Shown here in pieces: positions 8,696 to 51,953 of a DNA stretch of 64,000 nt. Each line of letters opens with the position of its first letter. The first letter of the stretch is position 1. The notes beneath the pieces are model-generated. The model was not told where the DNA came from, did no database searches, and worked only from the letters and a program-made list of their open reading frames with translations. The DNA is from Escherichia coli (lineage in GTDB: Bacteria; Pseudomonadota; Gammaproteobacteria; Enterobacterales; Enterobacteriaceae): assembly GCF_024298765.1 (NCBI RefSeq), contig NZ_CP101210.1; one strand, given 5' to 3'. The position numbers were made by a program, and so were the translations under genes.

Positions 8696-9367
8696 TTAGG
8701 GCTGATTTGCTGTATAGCGCACGAACGCCGGACGTTCCGAGGCCACCGCGTCCGCCCAGCGCGTTGGCTCCGGCAGACGATAGCCTTTCATGCAGCGTTG
8801 TACCCACGCCAGCGCGCTGTCTACGCTGACCCGATGGCCGGTAGCGATAAACAACGGGTTACAGCGCGCTTTGCTGCGCCAGACCCAGGCCAGCTGCTCG
8901 CCTTTATCCATCAGCGGTGCCAGCGCGCCCGGTTCACTGGAGAGCGGTTCGAATTTACCGCAGAGCCGTTTTTTCGCCACGCCTATCGTTGGCACATCCA
9001 CCAGCAAACCAAAGTGGCTGGCGACGCCAAGACGGCGAGGATGCGAGATCCCGTGACCATCGACAAACACTAAATCCGGCTTTTGCGACAGCATCTCCCA
9101 CGCTGCCAGCAGCGCAGGATATTCGCGGAAGGAGAGAAAACCTGGAATGTAAGGCATGGTGGTGGCGATGCGGGCCACTTTATACTCCACCAGCTCAAGC
9201 GAGGGGTATTTCAGCAGCACCATCGCCGCTCGCGTCACTTCTCCGCCCTGCTCAAATCCGACATCGGCTCCGGCGATCAGATCCGGCGGATCTTTATCGA
9301 GTCGATCCTCGCGGATCACAGAAGAAGCCAGTTCGATTTGTTGAGCGCGTAATGACGCGAGATCCAT
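8696..9367 (-). CDS. nfi: Endonuclease V (deoxyinosine 3' endonuclease)
   Basis: 223 aa [23 protein letters not shown]; RBS aaggag upstream. Confidence 0.95.
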
Positions 9368-9379
9368 AATCGCTCCTTA

Positions 9380-9523
9380 GAGCCTGGTCCACCAGGCGTA
9401 ATTGTTGAAGGCAGTTTGAGGCCGGACAGCGCGGAAAAACCGGAGCGTACACGTAGTACGTGAGGATTTTGAGCACTGCCCGGCCTCAAAATGGCAAATA
9501 AAATAGCCTGATGGACCAGGCTC
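9380..9523. mobile_element. 144-bp MITE-like palindromic element with 18-bp terminal inverted repeats, flanked by TTA direct repeats
   Basis: Left TIR gagcctggtccaccaggc (9380..9397) vs right TIR reverse complement gagcctggtccatcaggc (9506..9523); inner IR ttgaggccgg/ccggcctcaa; central perfect palindrome cacgtagtacgtg; TTA at 9377..9379 and 9524..9526. Confidence 0.6.
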
Positions 9524-10588
9524 TTAGCGGTGATACTGTTCAGATAACCGATGCACTGCCTCCACAAACACGCCAGCATGTTCTGGCGGCACATCCTGAT
9601 GAATGCCGTGACCAAGGTTAAAGACATGACCTTCACCGTGACCGAAACCTGCAAGTATAGTCGCTACTTCTTCTTCAATGCGGGCTGGCGGCGCGTACAG
9701 CATCGACGGATCCATATTGCCCTGCAACGCGACTTTATTGCCCACGCGACGGCGCGCATCGGCGATGTCCGTTGTCCAGTCGAGGCCCAGCGCATCGCAA
9801 CCGGTTTCTGCCATGGCTTCCAGCCACTGTCCGCCGCCTTTGGTAAACAGCGTGACCGGTACGCGGCGACCGTCGTTTTCACGCAGTAAACCATCAACAA
9901 TTTTATGCATGTAATAAAGCGAGAACTGTTGATAATCGCGCCCGGTAAGCACGCCGCCCCAGGTGTCGAAAATCATCACTGCCTGAGCACCGGCTTTAAT
10001 CTGCGCATTCAGATACAAAGTGACGCTTTTCGCCAGTTTATCGAGTAGCGCGTGCAGCGCCTGCGGATCGGCATACATCATTTTTTTGATCACGGTGAAG
10101 GCTTTGCTGCTGCCGCCTTCCACCATATAGGTCGCCAGCGTCCACGGGCTGCCGGAAAAACCAATCAGCGGCACTTCGCCTTTCAGTTCGCGACGAATGG
10201 TACGCACCGCGTTCATCACGTAACCCAGCTCATCTTCCGGGTCCGGAATTGGCAGTTTATCGACGTCGGCTTTGCAGGTGACTGGCGAGGTAAAACGCGG
10301 ACCTTCTCCGGCTTCAAAATAGAGCCCTAACCCCATCGCGTCCGGCACGGTGAGGATATCGGAAAAGAGGATCGCCGCATCCAGCGGGTAGCGACGCAGC
10401 GGTTGCAAAGTCACTTCGCACGCCAGCTCGGCGTTTTTGCACAGCGACATAAAATCGCCCGCCTGGGCGCGCGTGGCTTTATATTCCGGTAGATAGCGAC
10501 CCGCCTGGCGCATCATCCATACTGGAGTGACATCAACGGGCTGGCGCAGCAGCGCCCGCAGATAACGATCGTTTTTAAGTTCGGTCAT
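9524..10588 (-). CDS. hemE: Uroporphyrinogen decarboxylase
   Basis: 354 aa [36 protein letters not shown]. Confidence 0.97.
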
Positions 10589-47740: not shown

Positions 47741-48640
47741 CACTTTATCGAAATGGCCATCCATTCTTGCGCGGATGGCCTCTGCCAGCTGCTCATAGCG
47801 GCTGCGCAGCGGTGAGCCAGGACGATAAACCAGACCAATGGTACGGCGTGGTTCCGGCTTAATACACGGCAAATAAACAACCCCATCGCGTTTGCGCTCC
47901 GGCGGCACAGCCAGCGCAGGCAGTAAAGTGATCCCGCTACCTGCCGCCACCATGTTGCGCAGAGTTTCCAGGCTGGTCGCGCGGAAGTGTGTATCTTCAT
48001 CCGCCCCGGCTTCAAAACAGAAACCCATTGCCTGATCGCGCAAACAGTGACCGTCTTCCAGCATCAGCAGTTTTTCCCCTGCCAGATCGGCCATCGGTAC
48101 GCATTCGCGGTTCGCCCACGGATGGTCTTCATAGATAGCCAGCAACATTGGCTCATCAAACAACGGCACTTCAATGAATGCTTCGCTCTCTTTCACCAGC
48201 GCGAGGATCACGCAATCGAGTTTGCCGCTGTCCAGTTGCGCCAGTAACTGGTGGGTCTGTGCTTCATGCAGATACATTTCCAGCTTTGGAAAGGTCTGGT
48301 GCAGCATCGGGATAATATGCGGTAGCAGGTACGGTCCAACCGTGGGAATCAGACCAATATGCAGCGGTCCGGACATCGTCTCGCCCTGCTGGCTTGCCAT
48401 CTCTTTAAGGACTTTCACCTCACGCAGCACGGTACGCGCCTGATCCACCAGCAGCATTCCCGCCTGGGTGAATAACACTTTACGGCTGGTCCGCTCCAGC
48501 AACATCACACCCAACTCATCTTCCAGCTTACGAATTTGCCCGCTAAGCGTCGGCTGGCTAACGTGGCAGGAATCTGCCGCACGCCGAAAATGGCGGTGTT
48601 CGGCCAATGCCACCAGGTACTCAAGATCACGAATATTCAT
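47723..48640 (-). CDS. oxyR: LysR-family hydrogen peroxide-inducible regulator
   Basis: 305 aa from [44 protein letters not shown]; redox Cys residues present; 3' end overlaps sthA by 18 bp. Confidence 0.97.
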
Positions 48641-48735
48641 TATCCATCCTCCATTGCCACGATAGTTCGCGGCGATAGGTAGCATAGCAACGAACGATTA
48701 TCCCTATCAAGCATTCTGACTGATAATTGCTCACA

Positions 48736-48848
48736 GAAACGGAGCGGCACCTCTTTTAACCCTTGAAGTCACTGCCCGTTTCGAGAGTTTCTCAACTCGA
48801 ATAACTAAAGCCAACGTGAACTTTTGCGGATCTCCAGGATCCGCTTTT
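48736..48848 (+). ncRNA. oxyS: OxyS small regulatory RNA
   Basis: GAAACGGAGCGGCACCTCTTTTAACCCTTGAAGTCACTGCCCGTTTCGAGAGTTTCTCAACTCGAATAACTAAAGCCAACGTGAACTTTTGCGGATCTCCAGGATCCGCTTTTTTTT; divergent from oxyR. Confidence 0.92.
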
Positions 48849-48891
48849 TTTTATTCTACAGGCCCACAGCAAGAGAGCCTGATAGTAACGG

Positions 48892-50175
48892 TTACTCAAT
48901 CCGATCTTTGACAATAAAGAAGTAACACAGCGCCCCGGTGAACGTCACACAGGCCGCGATAACCAGCGCCAGATTAAACGAGTGTGTGGTATCCACGACC
49001 CAACCGGTTACGATCGGAGCAAAGGAAGCAAAAACAAAACTGCCAAAGTTTTGAATCCCGGCGATGGAAGCCACTTTTGTTTCTGACACCATCACCTGCA
49101 CCAGCCCCCATGCAGATGTTCCCGCGAAATGCACGCAGAACAGCGCCATTGAGATAAACGCTACCGCCTGGGCTGGCGAGGAAGATTGCACGACCAGCAA
49201 CGTGCCTAATGCCGACATCATCAAACCGCAGACAATCGCCGTTTTACGCGTCTTCGCCAGGTCATAGCCTTTTTTCGCCAGCCGATCGACAACAATACCG
49301 TTAACCCACATCCCGACCGCCGCCGCGAGGAAAGGAATTGCCGCCACCCAACCGGTTTTCGCCAGACTGAAACCTTGTTCGGCCTGCAAATAACCGGGTA
49401 ACCACGCGATGTAGAGCCAACCGGTATAATTGACGCCAGAGAAACCTAAAATCATCCCCCAGGTTGTCCGATGCTTAAACAGCGCCAGCCACTCGCTAAA
49501 TTGTAACTGTGGACGCGGTTTAACCGGCGCGGAGAGATATGTCCGTTCTTCCTCGGTCAGGACAAACTGCGCCCGGTTGCGATACCACGCGTACCAACAG
49601 ATCCCAACCAGAATCCCTGCTACGCCGATGATGACAAACATCGTCCGCCAGCCCCATGCCAGTTGCATCAATACAAGAGCAGGAGGCGCGATAGCCTGAC
49701 CGATAACGGTAGATGAGTTAAAAATCCCCAGCGCCGTGCCGCGTTCTTTTTGCGCATACCAGTCGGTGATCGACTTTACTCCCGCAGGCATAAATGGCGC
49801 TTCGCCAATACCCAGACCGATACGCATTAAAATAAAGTGGCTAAAAGAATTAACCATTCCTGTTAATGCCTGCATTAATGACCAGAATATTAAGCCTGCG
49901 CCTAACACTATTCGTGGGCCAAAGCGGTCTAGCAAAATACCGGAAGGAAGTTGTGAAAAACCATAAGACAGAGAAAATGCAGAAAGCAAAACACCAAACT
50001 CGGTAGCGGATAATCCTAACTCGCCACGAATTGCTTCACCTGCCACGCTCAATGACGAACGGTCGAGAAAATTAACGATCCCCGCCATAAATAATAAAAC
50101 CAGGGTCACTGTCTGAATACGACGAATCCGTTGCGGTTTATTACCCGCAACACTGGTTGACACATCAACGTCCAT
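48892..50175 (-). CDS. MFS transporter, anion:cation symporter family (hexonate/hexuronate-type)
   Basis: 427-aa ORF; MFS motif A GILLDRFGPRIV; about 12 hydrophobic segments; strong RBS aaggag; resembles the DgoT/ExuT/GudP/RhmT class by eye. Confidence 0.85.
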   Translation of the reverse strand: MDVDVSTSVAGNKPQRIRRIQTVTLVLLFMAGIVNFLDRSSLSVAGEAIRGELGLSATEFGVLLSAFSLSYGFSQLPSGILLDRFGPRIVLGAGLIFWSLMQALTGMVNSFSHFILMRIGLGIGEAPFMPAGVKSITDWYAQKERGTALGIFNSSTVIGQAIAPPALVLMQLAWGWRTMFVIIGVAGILVGICWYAWYRNRAQFVLTEEERTYLSAPVKPRPQLQFSEWLALFKHRTTWGMILGFSGVNYTGWLYIAWLPGYLQAEQGFSLAKTGWVAAIPFLAAAVGMWVNGIVVDRLAKKGYDLAKTRKTAIVCGLMMSALGTLLVVQSSSPAQAVAFISMALFCVHFAGTSAWGLVQVMVSETKVASIAGIQNFGSFVFASFAPIVTGWVVDTTHSFNLALVIAACVTFTGALCYFFIVKDRIE

Positions 50176-50241
50176 TTTTAGCTCCTTGAGCGGAATTAAT
50201 CGATTTGATGAATATTCAGAAAATAATTAAGCGAACCGCTA

Positions 50242-51456
50242 TTACCAGTTCCACAATGTGCCATCTTCCAGTCGTGCGACGGGGAGATACGCCGGGTCAT
50301 ACGGATATTTCGCCGCCAGTTTCTCATCGAAAGAAATACCCAGCCCCGGTTCATCGCCTGGGTGCATATAACCTTCATCGAAGCGCCAGCTATGCGGGAA
50401 GACTTCAAGCATTTGTTCGGAATAGCCCATGTACTCCTGAACGCCAAAGTTTGGCACCCAGAGGTCAAAATGCAGCGCCGCCGCATGGCAAACAGGCGAT
50501 AAATCTGAAGGGCCATGCGAACCGGTACGTACCTGATAAAGCGATGCAAAATCGGCAATCCGTCGCATCCCGGTAATGCCGCCTGCATGGGTAATCGTCG
50601 TGCGAATATAGTCAATCAGCTGCTCTTCGATTAACTGCTTGCAGTCCCAGATACTGTTAAACACTTCACCGACCGCAATCGGCGTCACGGTATGCTGACG
50701 AATCAGACGAAAACATTCCTGATTCTCGGCAGGCGTCGGATCTTCCATCCAGAACAGGCGGTAATCTTCAATGCTCTTCCCAAAGCGCGCCGCTTCGATG
50801 GGGGTCAGGCGATGGTGCATGTCATGCAACAGATGTTCGTTAAAACCGAACTTATTACGCACCGCTTCAAATAACTTCGGCGTAAAATCGAGATACTTTT
50901 CTGAAGACCACAACTGCTCTTCTGGCCACAGGCCTTTGGTTGCTGGTTCATACGCCAGTCCTTTGCCCTTCGCCAGACCATAGGTGGTTTGCATACCCGG
51001 TACACCACACTGCACACGAATCGCCTTAAAGCCCATCTGCTGGTGCTTTGCATAGTCTTCAAGGACTTCATCAATCGTACGCCCGGTGGTGTGGCAATAA
51101 ACCATAACGCCTTCACGAGAAGCACCACCAAGCAGTTGATACAATGGCATATTTGCCGCTTTTGCTTTGATATCCCACAACGCCATATCAATGGCAGAAA
51201 TGGCTGACATCGTGACGGGGCCACGTCGCCAGTAAGCACCTTTATAAAAGAATTGCCAGATATCTTCGATACGGCTGGCATCGCGGCCAATTAGTTGTGG
51301 ACAAAGATGATCTTTCAGATAAGAAGCGACCGACAATTCGCGACCATTTAACGTGGCATCTCCTAATCCACAAAGTCCGCTTGCAGTGGTTATTTTAAGC
51401 GTAACGAAATTACGCCCTGGGCAAGTAACAAAAACATCTGCAGCAATAATTTTCAT
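50242..51456 (-). CDS. Enolase-superfamily dehydratase, D-mannonate dehydratase (ManD/RspA-like) subgroup
   Basis: 404 aa from [24 protein letters not shown]; ManD-type motifs ([25 protein letters not shown]) and metal ligands in HDMHH / WMEDP / GEVF; RBS aggag. Confidence 0.85.
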
Positions 51457-51857
51457 TATTGCAATCTCCTGTGTTGTAAATAGACGTTTCAAACTTAATT
51501 TTGCGCCTACTACCATACAAGAGAGAAAGAGCGATTATTCAACCATGATCACATTAAAAATAAAAATTTCTACCGAGGAGAAAAAACACCCTCAAAAACC
51601 ACCTGAATAATTAGCTATCATCGTTAAAACAACACGTTAAATAATCACATAACAAACTCCATTAATCATTAAAAATGAACACAGCAATAGAAATGAATTA
51701 TATTCAATTAATTAAAGTATGTATTGGCTGATGTATTGAAAATATAATTTTTATGGGGAGAGTGAAGGTAAAGAAGACGCAAGAATAAAAAGGAATGTGA
51801 CAAATAATGGTTCTGGTTGGGCGTTAAATTTAAGGTCACCAGAATACTGACAAATTT

Positions 51858-51912
51858 CTGCCTGATGCGGCGTAAACGCCTTATCCGCCTACGAAGTGTC
51901 GCACTTTGTAGG
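51858..51912. repeat. REP/BIME-type palindromic repeat downstream of argH
   Basis: gcctgatgcggcgtaaacgccttatccgcctac followed by an imperfect palindrome gaagtgtcgcactttgtagg. Confidence 0.6.
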
Positions 51913-51953
51913 CGTGGTAAGCTCCCCATTTTCAGGGGAGCAATATAAACAAA

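What the first reader, a model, noticed from the sequence alone, without database searches (positions are those of the whole stretch)
48892..50175. Anion:cation-symporter MFS transporter translationally coupled to the dehydratase
A 66-bp spacer and a strong RBS indicate an operon with the upstream dehydratase, so this transporter is the likely uptake step for the same substrate. No cognate regulator is encoded in the insert, so control must come from elsewhere or from the AT-rich upstream region.
Basis: inference. Interest (0 to 1): 0.35.

Follow-up and report, generated by a model that had tools for sequence, protein, structure and literature searches.

The report
Sugar-acid importer paired with mannonate dehydratase
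This is an ordinary but uncharacterised E. coli accessory gene for a proton-driven sugar-acid importer, most likely co-transcribed with a D-mannonate dehydratase gene, and comparison with other bacteria suggests it brings in D-mannonate or the closely related L-gulonate.

Summary
A 427-aa ORF lies at 48892-50175 on the minus strand. It sits 66 bp downstream of a 404-aa ManD-type dehydratase gene (50242-51456) and has an AAGGAG ribosome-binding site 6 nt before its ATG. No regulator lies between argH and oxyS.

The protein is an anion:cation-symporter (ACS/SLC17-type) MFS transporter. It is 56% identical to LgoT and at most 32% identical to DgoT, GarP, GudP, ExuT and RhmT. It belongs to a separate clade that is sister to LgoT, with an invariant binding-pocket signature that differs from LgoT at four positions.

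Across Enterobacterales this clade sits next to a mannonate dehydratase, either ManD/RspA or the unrelated UxuA. The likely substrate is therefore D-mannonate or its C5 epimer L-gulonate; this is inferred, not shown.

The pair has one rspA-type promoter upstream of manD. It contains the conserved core of the RspR operator, found once in the 64-kb window. There is no promoter box or terminator between the genes, so an operon is supported. Strict translational coupling is not. The likely regulator is the resident repressor RspR, acting in trans.

The cassette is in 34% of complete E. coli genomes. It is old and under strong purifying selection. I file it as a new member of a known kind, of modest interest.

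The parts
48892..50175 (-). Coding sequence of a 427-aa ACS-family MFS transporter from an LgoT-sister clade; probable hexonate:H+ symporter
   Evidence: ORF. Pfam MFS_1 and TIGR00893 are the top hits. It is 56% identical to LgoT. The AlphaFold model shows 12 TM helices plus 2 intracellular helices, pLDDT 89, and its best structural match is DgoT. RefSeq calls it 'MFS transporter' WP_000382186.1.
50182..50187 (-). Shine-Dalgarno AAGGAG of the transporter gene, 6 nt before its ATG
   Evidence: Read from the sequence.
50176..50241 (-). 66-nt manD-transporter spacer, 33% GC, with no terminator, promoter box or notable structure
   Evidence: One search flagged only a weak hairpin over the manD stop codon. 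Folding gave z = 0.02. No copy of the 12-mer box lies here.
50242..51456 (-). manD: 404-aa enolase-superfamily D-mannonate dehydratase, a paralogue of RspA (91.6% aa identity to K-12 RspA)
   Evidence: NCBIfam NF043051 equivalog scores 727.8 bits against a cut-off of 550. Best PDB relatives are 4IL2 and 4E4F. Identity to RspA.
51492..51553 (-). rspA-type promoter of the cassette: TGTGATC (51553-51547); 25 nt; box CTTGTATGGTAG (51521-51510) containing the -35 TTGTAT; 17 nt; -10 TAAGTT (51497-51492). The predicted transcription start is C at 51486.
   Evidence: The region is homologous to the K-12 rspA promoter, where the RspR footprint and transcription start were mapped (PMC8249747). The exact 12-mer occurs once in the 64-kb window. 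Coordinates were checked.
51457..51860 (-). AT-rich (31% GC) leader and upstream region of manD, partly conserved with E. whittamii and Citrobacter sp. R56
51861..51953 (-). argH-distal hairpin (GCTCCCC-N7-GGGGAGC, without a T-run) followed by a REP-like element; marks the argH-side end of the cassette
   Evidence: Sequence. Fold of -43 kcal/mol. Weak Rfam naRNA4/REP hit at 27.6 bits, below the gathering score. REP copies also match other loci.
48736..48845 (+). oxyS small RNA gene, convergent with the transporter gene; its terminator marks the other end of the cassette
   Evidence: Rfam RF00035, 139.5 bits. Comparison with the empty site.

Best explanation
The ORF encodes a proton-coupled organic-anion importer of the ACS (SLC17-like) MFS family. 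It belongs to an uncharacterised clade that is sister to the L-galactonate transporter LgoT.

In this genome it is the second gene of a two-gene unit, manD then transporter. The unit is most likely transcribed from a single rspA-type sigma-70 promoter about 30 nt upstream of the manD ATG. The transporter is translated from its own AAGGAG site.

The proposed pathway is as follows. The transporter takes up a hexonate. ManD dehydrates D-mannonate to 2-keto-3-deoxy-D-gluconate. The host's KdgK and Eda then feed that product into central metabolism.

The most likely substrate is D-mannonate, and possibly also its C5 epimer L-gulonate. L-gulonate would need the resident RspB and YdfI enzymes.

The most likely regulator is the resident GntR-family repressor RspR (YdfH), acting in trans on the conserved box that overlaps the -35 element.

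**Shown here:** family, fold, conserved coupling residues, gene order, promoter homology, conserved neighbourhood, purifying selection.

**Inferred:** substrate, co-transcription, RspR control.
For: **Family and mechanism**
- Pfam MFS_1; TIGR00893 (ACS, 2A0114) is the top NCBIfam hit by about 100 bits.
- The sequence aligns end to end with DgoT (6E9N) at E = 2e-57.
- The AlphaFold model has pLDDT 89 and shows 12 TM helices plus 2 intracellular helices. Its best structural matches are DgoT (TM-score 0.80-0.87), then sialin and VGLUT2.
- The DgoT residues for carboxylate binding and proton coupling are kept: R47, Y79, R126, D46 and E133 correspond to R39, Y71, R118, D38 and E125 (residue roles from PMC6532931, and the 2026 LgoT preprint).

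**Position in the family**
- Identity is 56% to LgoT and 21-32% to the other five E. coli ACS members.
- In an NJ tree the clade is monophyletic (100% bootstrap) and sister to LgoT (100%).
- The pocket signature F36/M129/T156/F245/T353/Q360/N376 is invariant in 19 members down to 65% overall identity. It differs from LgoT at four positions.

**Link to mannonate dehydration**
- In 16 fetched Enterobacteriaceae loci, plus the window itself, the orthologue lies directly beside ManD/RspA. Gene order varies. In most non-Escherichia cases this is inside the rsp locus.
- In Rouxiella, Pectobacterium, Leminorella and Providencia the orthologue forms a three-gene module: a GntR regulator, the transporter, and the non-homologous D-mannonate dehydratase UxuA.

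**Operon**
- The exact 12-mer CTTGTATGGTAG occurs once in the 64-kb window, 65 nt upstream of the manD ATG.
- In most ManD-then-transporter species sampled the only box copy in the pair lies upstream of manD. In the reverse order each gene has its own box and a hairpin lies between them.
- The E. coli spacer has no terminator or notable structure.

**Regulator**
- The box overlaps the mapped RspR footprint and the -35 element of K-12 rspA.
- rspR is present in 5417 of 5426 genomes.

**Function retained**
- dN/dS is 0.01-0.03 for both genes against other Escherichia species.
Against: - No transport, expression or binding data exist for this protein. No paper in the searched library mentions its accession.
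- TIGR00893 scores 276.6 bits, below its curated cut-off of 395.
- The left half of the published RspR palindrome (ATACnnGTAT) is TCTC here, three mismatches in all. RspR binding may therefore be weak or lost.
- The predicted -10 element (TAAGTT) is poor, and the consensus promoter scan did not detect this promoter.
- In full rsp loci the transporter co-occurs with RspB, YdfI and a second MFS transporter (YdfJ). L-gulonate or another hexonate therefore remains possible.
- From my own recollection of Wichelecki et al. 2014 (not readable here), RspA-type ManDs are 'low-efficiency' enzymes with no demonstrated physiological role.
- Kluyvera has a strong 15-bp hairpin between rspA and the transporter gene. 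Co-transcription is therefore not universal for this gene order.
- Some E. coli alleles carry in-frame deletions, and Citrobacter sp. R56 has lost most of manD. The unit is dispensable.
Confidence: 0.7

Rival explanations
1. The transporter is an L-gulonate:H+ symporter. It supplies the resident rsp pathway: RspB L-gulonate 5-dehydrogenase, then YdfI fructuronate reductase, then ManD or UxuA. It would not be a D-mannonate carrier.
For: - In full rsp loci it sits with RspB, YdfI and ManD.
- L-gulonate is the C3 epimer of LgoT's substrate L-galactonate (my own stereochemistry). This fits a 56% paralogue with a slightly altered pocket.
- The L-gulonate pathway through fructuronate and mannonate is established in H. 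influenzae, whose binding protein takes both L-gulonate and D-mannonate (PMC5788505).
Against: - The minimal modules contain no L-gulonate dehydrogenase or fructuronate reductase. This holds for transporter + ManD in Escherichia and for regulator + transporter + UxuA in four other genera.
- Full rsp loci already carry a second transporter, YdfJ.
Confidence: 0.25
2. It is a redundant L-galactonate transporter that does the same job as LgoT. One database record (Cedecea lapagei) names an orthologue this way.
For: LgoT is the nearest characterised relative at 56% identity. Pocket positions F245, T353 and N376 match LgoT.
Against: - It forms a separate clade with 100% bootstrap support. LgoT is encoded at a separate locus in K-12, which lacks the cassette, so the two are distinct genes and not alleles.
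- Four pocket or gate positions differ from LgoT, invariantly across the clade.
- It is never found next to lgoR/lgoD-type genes.
- LgoT is strictly stereoselective.
Confidence: 0.07
3. The gene is an independently expressed or silent relic. It would have no working link to manD, the adjacency being only historical.
For: - Two thirds of E. coli genomes lack the cassette.
- Some alleles carry in-frame deletions that remove a TM helix.
- Citrobacter sp. R56 keeps the transporter gene but only about 190 bp of manD.
- Shimwellia has the transporter gene alone.
- From memory, RspA-type ManDs are reported as low-efficiency.
Against: - dN/dS is 0.01-0.03 for both genes over dS of 0.2-0.37.
- The transporter is repeatedly linked to one of two unrelated mannonate dehydratases.
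- No separate promoter box or terminator lies in the E. coli spacer.
Confidence: 0.08
4. One reading: translation of the transporter gene depends mechanically on translation of manD (translational coupling).
For: The genes share a strand and are close together. A 4-bp hairpin (GCUC/GAGC) includes part of the ribosome-binding site.
Against: - The stop and start codons are 66 nt apart.
- The ribosome-binding site is strong and essentially unstructured, and the junction folds no better than shuffled sequence (z = 0.02).
- Spacer length ranges from 19 to 123 nt among species with the same gene order.
Confidence: 0.05

Closest known systems
LgoT (YjjL), the L-galactonate:H+ symporter of E. coli K-12 (ACS family, TC 2.A.1.14)
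   Same: Nearest characterised relative at 56% identity and the sister clade. It has the same 12-TM fold, the same D/E/R proton-coupling and carboxylate-binding residues, and the same F/T/N at DgoT positions 264/370/393.
   Different: It is a separate orthologous group. Four pocket or gate positions differ: Y55 to F, N148 to M, S175 to T, H381 to Q. It is linked to a mannonate dehydratase rather than to lgoR/lgoD. Its substrate has not been tested.
DgoT, the D-galactonate:H+ symporter (PDB 6E9N/6E9O), and the dgoD-dgoT and rhmD-yfaV(rhmT) arrangements
   Same: Best solved-structure match. The operon logic is also the same: an enolase-superfamily acid-sugar dehydratase gene followed by an ACS transporter gene on the same strand, with a 56-119 bp spacer in K-12.
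   Different: Identity is only 30-31%. Substrate-specifying residues Q164, Q264 and S370 are T, F and T here. In dgo and rhm the regulator is encoded in the operon, whereas here it is not.
The rspAB operon and its repressor RspR (YdfH) in E. coli K-12
   Same: The upstream gene is 91.6% identical to RspA. The promoter shares TGTGATC-N25-CTTGTATGGTAGTAG, the -35 element, and a 30-nt distance from the start site to the ATG.
   Different: The cassette lies at argH-oxyS, not at the rsp locus. Its second gene is a transporter rather than RspB. The left half of the RspR palindrome is degenerate. Synonymous divergence from resident rspA is saturated, so this is not a recent duplication.
The GulPQM TRAP transporter and L-gulonate pathway of Haemophilus influenzae
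   Same: An uptake system placed at the head of a pathway through D-mannonate to KDG. D-mannonate itself supports growth and induces that pathway (PMC5788505).
   Different: It is an unrelated transporter class (TRAP with a periplasmic binding protein). Its dehydratase is UxuA, and the whole pathway is encoded in one cluster.

Membership tests
ACS family of the MFS (TC 2.A.1.14; SLC17-like) | MFS fold with 12 TM helices in two six-helix bundles joined by intracellular helices | tested here: met
   Pfam MFS_1 at 190.7 bits. The AlphaFold model has pLDDT 89.3 and pTM 0.89, with 12 TM helices plus 2 intracellular helices. Foldseek's top hits are DgoT, then sialin and VGLUT2.
ACS family of the MFS (TC 2.A.1.14; SLC17-like) | Reaches the curated score of the family profile TIGR00893 (2A0114) | tested here: not met
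   It is the top hit at 276.6 bits. The next family scores 169.1, but the curated cut-off is 395.
ACS family of the MFS (TC 2.A.1.14; SLC17-like) | TM1 arginine and TM2 tyrosine that bind the substrate carboxylate, plus the D46/E133/R126 proton-coupling set (DgoT numbering) | tested here: met
   R39, Y71, D38, E125 and R118 are present. Y44 is F36, as in RhmT and the VGLUTs.
ACS family of the MFS (TC 2.A.1.14; SLC17-like) | Proton-coupled uptake of an organic anion | not testable with these tools
   This needs a proteoliposome or whole-cell transport assay.
LgoT orthologues (L-galactonate:H+ symporter) | Groups within the LgoT clade and not as a separate paralogue | tested here: not met
   It forms a separate clade with 100% bootstrap support, sister to LgoT at 56% identity.
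LgoT orthologues (L-galactonate:H+ symporter) | Same binding-pocket residues as LgoT | tested here: not met
   Four of 14 compared positions differ, invariantly across 19 clade members.
LgoT orthologues (L-galactonate:H+ symporter) | Linked to lgoR/lgoD | tested here: not met
   No LgoR or LgoD homologue lies in any of the 25 neighbourhoods.
manD-transporter operon (co-transcription) | Same strand, with no terminator and no separate promoter between the genes | tested here: met
   The only feature flagged is a 6-bp hairpin over the manD stop codon, within the number expected by chance.
manD-transporter operon (co-transcription) | A transcript that spans both genes | not testable with these tools
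   No RNA data are available.
Translationally coupled gene pair | Stop and start codons overlap or nearly abut, or the downstream ribosome-binding site is hidden in structure that upstream translation opens | tested here: not met
   The gap is 66 nt. The ribosome-binding site lies 47 nt past the stop codon. The junction fold has z = 0.02.
RspR (YdfH) regulon | RspR box ATACnnGTAT overlapping the -35 element | tested here: inconclusive
   The window has TCTCTTGTAT, three mismatches, all in the left half. The 12-mer core CTTGTATGGTAG, invariant in more than 20 rsp-type promoters, is present exactly and at the same distance from the ATG.
RspR (YdfH) regulon | RspR binds the promoter and represses it | not testable with these tools
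   This needs a gel shift or footprint, and expression measurements in an rspR mutant.
ManD subgroup of the enolase superfamily (the upstream gene) | Reaches the curated score of the NCBIfam equivalog NF043051 | tested here: met
   727.8 bits against a cut-off of 550. It is 91.6% identical to RspA. Best PDB relatives are 4IL2 and 4E4F.

The most novel reading that the evidence does not exclude
The clade could be the first MFS transporter dedicated to D-mannonate. The two-gene cassette (ManD plus transporter, under the trans-encoded repressor RspR) would then be the missing physiological setting for 'low-efficiency' RspA-type ManD enzymes: salvage of external D-mannonate or L-gulonate by a subset of Escherichia strains. 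A side possibility follows from the lack of a terminator after the transporter gene. Induced transcription could run antisense through oxyS and into oxyR, linking sugar-acid use to the oxidative-stress locus.
Probability: 0.35. Interest if true: 0.45.

Novelty: new member of a known kind. Interest (0 to 1): 0.3.

Why it matters
- **Annotation.** The gene is labelled only 'MFS transporter' in RefSeq, yet it is in about a third of complete E. coli genomes. Only five of the six K-12 ACS transporters have an assigned substrate, and this is a seventh E. coli member with none.
- **A testable substrate.** Its repeated pairing with two unrelated mannonate dehydratases predicts D-mannonate or L-gulonate. 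The invariant pocket signature is a natural comparison with LgoT for working out how ACS transporters tell sugar-acid stereoisomers apart.
- **A way into the ManD question.** It offers a simple genetic system, cassette-positive against cassette-negative strains, for asking what RspA-type ManD enzymes do in cells.
- **A possible second RspR target.** RspR was reported to have a single target in K-12, which lacks this cassette. Cassette-bearing strains may have a second.
- **Scale.** None of this would overturn current understanding. It fills a gap in annotation and physiology.

Tried and rejected
- **Consensus promoter and terminator scan.** It found no promoter on the minus strand near manD and nothing convincing in the spacer. 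It also missed the rspA-type promoter, which is too weak for its threshold. That promoter was found only by homology.
- **Search for the published RspR palindrome with up to 1 mismatch.** There was no hit upstream of manD. I first read this as loss of the operator. I revised that after seeing that several species with a native RspR also have degenerate left halves but an invariant 12-mer core.
- **KdgR, UxuR/ExuR and full CRP sites.** I looked by eye in the upstream region and found no convincing palindrome. Only a conserved TGTGATC sits at a fixed 25-nt distance from the box, which may be a CRP half-site centred near -60.5. This is inference only.
- **Gerlt-lab ManD papers (bi500837w, PMC4007978, and a guessed PMC id).** None is held. 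Statements about 'low-efficiency' ManD and the cryptic L-gulonate pathway in CFT073 rest on my memory of the abstracts.
- **Literature search by protein accession.** Nothing found.
- **Search of 50%-identity cluster representatives.** It showed a very large family (705 clusters at E <= 1e-30). It added no closer characterised relative.
- **Recent horizontal transfer as the origin.** Rejected. The nearest non-Escherichia DNA is at most 81% identical. Divergence among Escherichia species matches species-level dS.
- **Recent duplication of resident rspA.** Rejected, because dS is saturated.
- **Gain or loss at the argH-oxyS site.** Left open. The empty allele carries about 55 bp that are absent from the occupied allele, so neither form is a simple derivative of the other.

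Full report
**Setting.** The window is E. coli chromosome. The gene order is trmA, yijD, fabR, sthA, oxyR, oxyS, then the segment in question, then argH, argB and argC. Rfam confirms oxyS at 48736-48845 on the plus strand.

- A 427-aa ORF lies at 48892-50175 on the minus strand.
- The gene upstream on that strand is listed as 50242-51516. It really starts at the ATG at 51456, giving 404 aa with an AGGAG ribosome-binding site, as RefSeq annotates it.
- The gap between the two genes is exactly 66 nt.
- AAGGAG sits 6 nt before the transporter's ATG.
- The segment holds only these two genes.
- It is present in 1860 of 5426 complete E. coli genomes. The rest carry about 55 bp of unrelated sequence, including the K-12 argH terminator.

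**What the protein is.**
- Pfam gives MFS_1. The best NCBIfam profile is the ACS family TIGR00893 at 276.6 bits, about 100 bits above the next family but below its curated cut-off of 395.
- The best solved relative is DgoT, aligned over residues 13-424.
- An AlphaFold model built from 21 sequences has pLDDT 89.3 and pTM 0.89. It shows 12 TM helices and two intracellular helices.
- Foldseek ranks DgoT first (TM-score 0.80-0.87), followed by sialin and VGLUT2.
- I fetched the six K-12 ACS genes for comparison. Identity is 56% to LgoT, 32% to GarP, 30-31% to DgoT, 28% to GudP, 23% to ExuT and 21-23% to RhmT.
- The residues that bind the carboxylate and couple protons in DgoT are all present (R47, Y79, R126, D46, E133; PMC6532931). 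E144 of LgoT, the equivalent of DgoT E133, is essential for transport.

**A distinct clade.**
- An NJ tree places the window protein and its orthologues in a clade with 100% bootstrap support, sister to LgoT (also 100%). The orthologues range from 71% to 99% identity and include the Rouxiella protein.
- At the 14 DgoT-defined pocket and gate positions, all 13 members carry the same residues.
- They differ from LgoT at four positions: F36 for Y, M129 for N, T156 for S, and Q360 for H.
- Six further members from Pectobacterium, Leminorella, Providencia, Celerinatantimonas, Klebsiella michiganensis and Affinibrenneria share this signature.
- LgoT is strictly specific for L-galactonate. An invariant different pocket therefore argues for a different substrate.

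**Genomic context points to mannonate.**
- In Raoultella, Pluralibacter, Lelliottia, Siccibacter, Kluyvera, Cedecea, Atlantibacter, Klebsiella and unnamed Enterobacter/Citrobacter isolates, the orthologue (82-89% identity) lies inside the rsp locus.
- That locus runs between ynfA and rspR-ydfG, with RspA (ManD), RspB, YdfJ and YdfI.
- The orthologue is directly adjacent to ManD in 16 fetched loci, plus the window itself, with the order varying.
- A second subclade (65-72% identity) forms a three-gene module in Rouxiella, Pectobacterium, Leminorella and Providencia, each time with different flanking genes.
- That module is a divergent GntR-FCD regulator, the transporter, and UxuA. UxuA is the non-homologous D-mannonate dehydratase.
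- Its regulator is only 28% identical to RspR and has a different operator.
- So the same transporter clade is tied to two unrelated enzymes that carry out one reaction.
- The minimal modules contain no other enzyme: ManD + transporter in Escherichia, and UxuA + transporter in the second subclade. D-mannonate is therefore the simplest substrate.
- L-gulonate is the C5 epimer of D-mannonate and the C3 epimer of L-galactonate (my own stereochemistry). It remains plausible where RspB and YdfI are present. The H. influenzae system handles both compounds.

**Operon and regulator.**
- In K-12, RspR (YdfH) protects 31 bp centred on ATACTTGTAT. This overlaps the -35 element of rspA, and transcription starts 30 nt before the ATG (PMC8249747).
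- I aligned the region upstream of the first gene in 21 loci. Nineteen share an invariant CTTGTATGGTAG and a TGTGATC (in a few, only GTGATC) exactly 25 nt upstream of it, whichever gene comes first. The exceptions are Siccibacter, which has two TGTGA-type motifs (tgtgacc, tgtgatc) at other distances, and Rouxiella, which has neither element.
- The window has this exact 12-mer once in 64 kb, at 51521-51510. It is followed by a 17-nt spacer, TAAGTT, and a C at 51486, which is 30 nt before the manD ATG.
- In most species with ManD-then-transporter order the only box copy in the pair lies upstream of manD.
- In species with the reverse order, each gene has its own box and a GC-rich hairpin separates them.
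- The E. coli spacer has no box and no convincing terminator, and it folds no better than shuffled sequence.
- This supports a bicistronic unit. It does not support translational coupling in the strict sense.
- The left half of the published palindrome is degenerate here (TCTC). It is also degenerate in several species that encode RspR next to the locus. RspR control is therefore likely but unproven.
- rspR itself is in 5417 of 5426 genomes.

**History and selection.**
- The transporter gene is in 1869 of 5426 genomes. There are two allele groups, one at 99% identity or more and one near 97.7%.
- E. whittamii and two unnamed Escherichia species carry the cassette at the same site, with 93-96% DNA identity.
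- dN/dS is 0.01-0.03 at dS of 0.16-0.37 for both genes. The cassette is therefore old and functional.
- Its manD is not a recent copy of resident rspA, because dS between them is saturated.
- Signs that the unit is dispensable also exist. Some alleles have in-frame 28-aa or 39-aa deletions. Citrobacter sp. R56 retains a manD remnant next to an intact transporter gene. One strain has an IS1 upstream of manD.

**Verdict.** This is a correctly spotted gene of an ordinary type. The substrate assignment is an inference from context and pocket comparison and needs a transport assay.

Noticed in passing
window 48640-48892, minus strand: No intrinsic terminator follows the transporter's stop codon on its own strand. 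The only strong hairpin is the oxyS terminator read backwards, with A-runs on both sides and no U-tract. The transporter gene runs in the same direction as oxyR, so read-through would be antisense to oxyS and could enter oxyR.
   Followed up: partly
window 51620-51641, minus strand: The direct repeat TTTAACG-N5-TTTTAACG, about 165 nt upstream of the manD ATG, is conserved between E. coli, E. whittamii and Citrobacter sp. R56. The surrounding AT-rich sequence has diverged. It could be a protein-binding site. I found no known motif that matches it.
   Followed up: no
window 51547-51553, minus strand: TGTGATC lies exactly 25 nt upstream of the box in 19 of the 21 upstream regions compared, a few showing only GTGATC. 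Its centre falls near -60.5, which would fit a class I CRP half-site. The right half is poor.
   Followed up: partly
L035 3664-4361 (E. coli HCM-28C-2, otherwise 100% identical to the window here): An IS1A element is inserted in the AT-rich region about 350 bp upstream of manD, between the REP element and the promoter. The window itself lacks it.
   Followed up: partly
P0003, P0005 (399 aa) and P0108 (388 aa), E. coli alleles of the transporter: These carry in-frame deletions between short repeats. One removes residues 272-299, which form one TM helix. The other removes residues 121-159, including the proton-coupling E125. Both probably inactivate the transporter. P0005 was seen on 22 contigs.
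   Followed up: partly
L029 9693-9882 (Citrobacter sp. R56, same argH-oxyR site): manD is reduced to a remnant of about 190 bp that fuses its N- and C-terminal codons. The promoter box and a 92%-identical transporter gene are still intact.
   Followed up: partly
L012 7889-8000 (Kluyvera cryocrescens): A perfect 15-bp hairpin followed by a T-rich stretch lies between rspA and the transporter gene, and there is no separate box. It may be a terminator or an attenuator in that species.
   Followed up: no
L016 (Enterobacter sp. kpr-6) 1243-2454 and 8712-9923: Two ManD genes lie in one rsp locus, each with its own full RspR box. The second is followed directly by the transporter gene, the same two-gene layout as the Escherichia cassette.
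   Followed up: no
L019 (record titled Chryseobacterium sp. 18061): The contig carries speG, ynfB and an rsp locus 76-92% identical to E. coli proteins. It is clearly from an Enterobacteriaceae genome, so the assembly label probably reflects contamination or a mix-up.
   Followed up: no
L001 1-361 (E. coli EC5654): In this strain the gene just upstream of sthA is annotated as an M20 aminoacylase family protein. The window has fabR there. This looks like another variable spot next to the region studied.
   Followed up: no
window 51861-51953: In cassette-bearing genomes argH ends in ...LE* and is followed by a hairpin without a T-run and then a REP-like element. In K-12 it ends in ...LG* and is followed by a canonical terminator. 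Some read-through from argCBH towards manD therefore cannot be excluded.
   Followed up: partly
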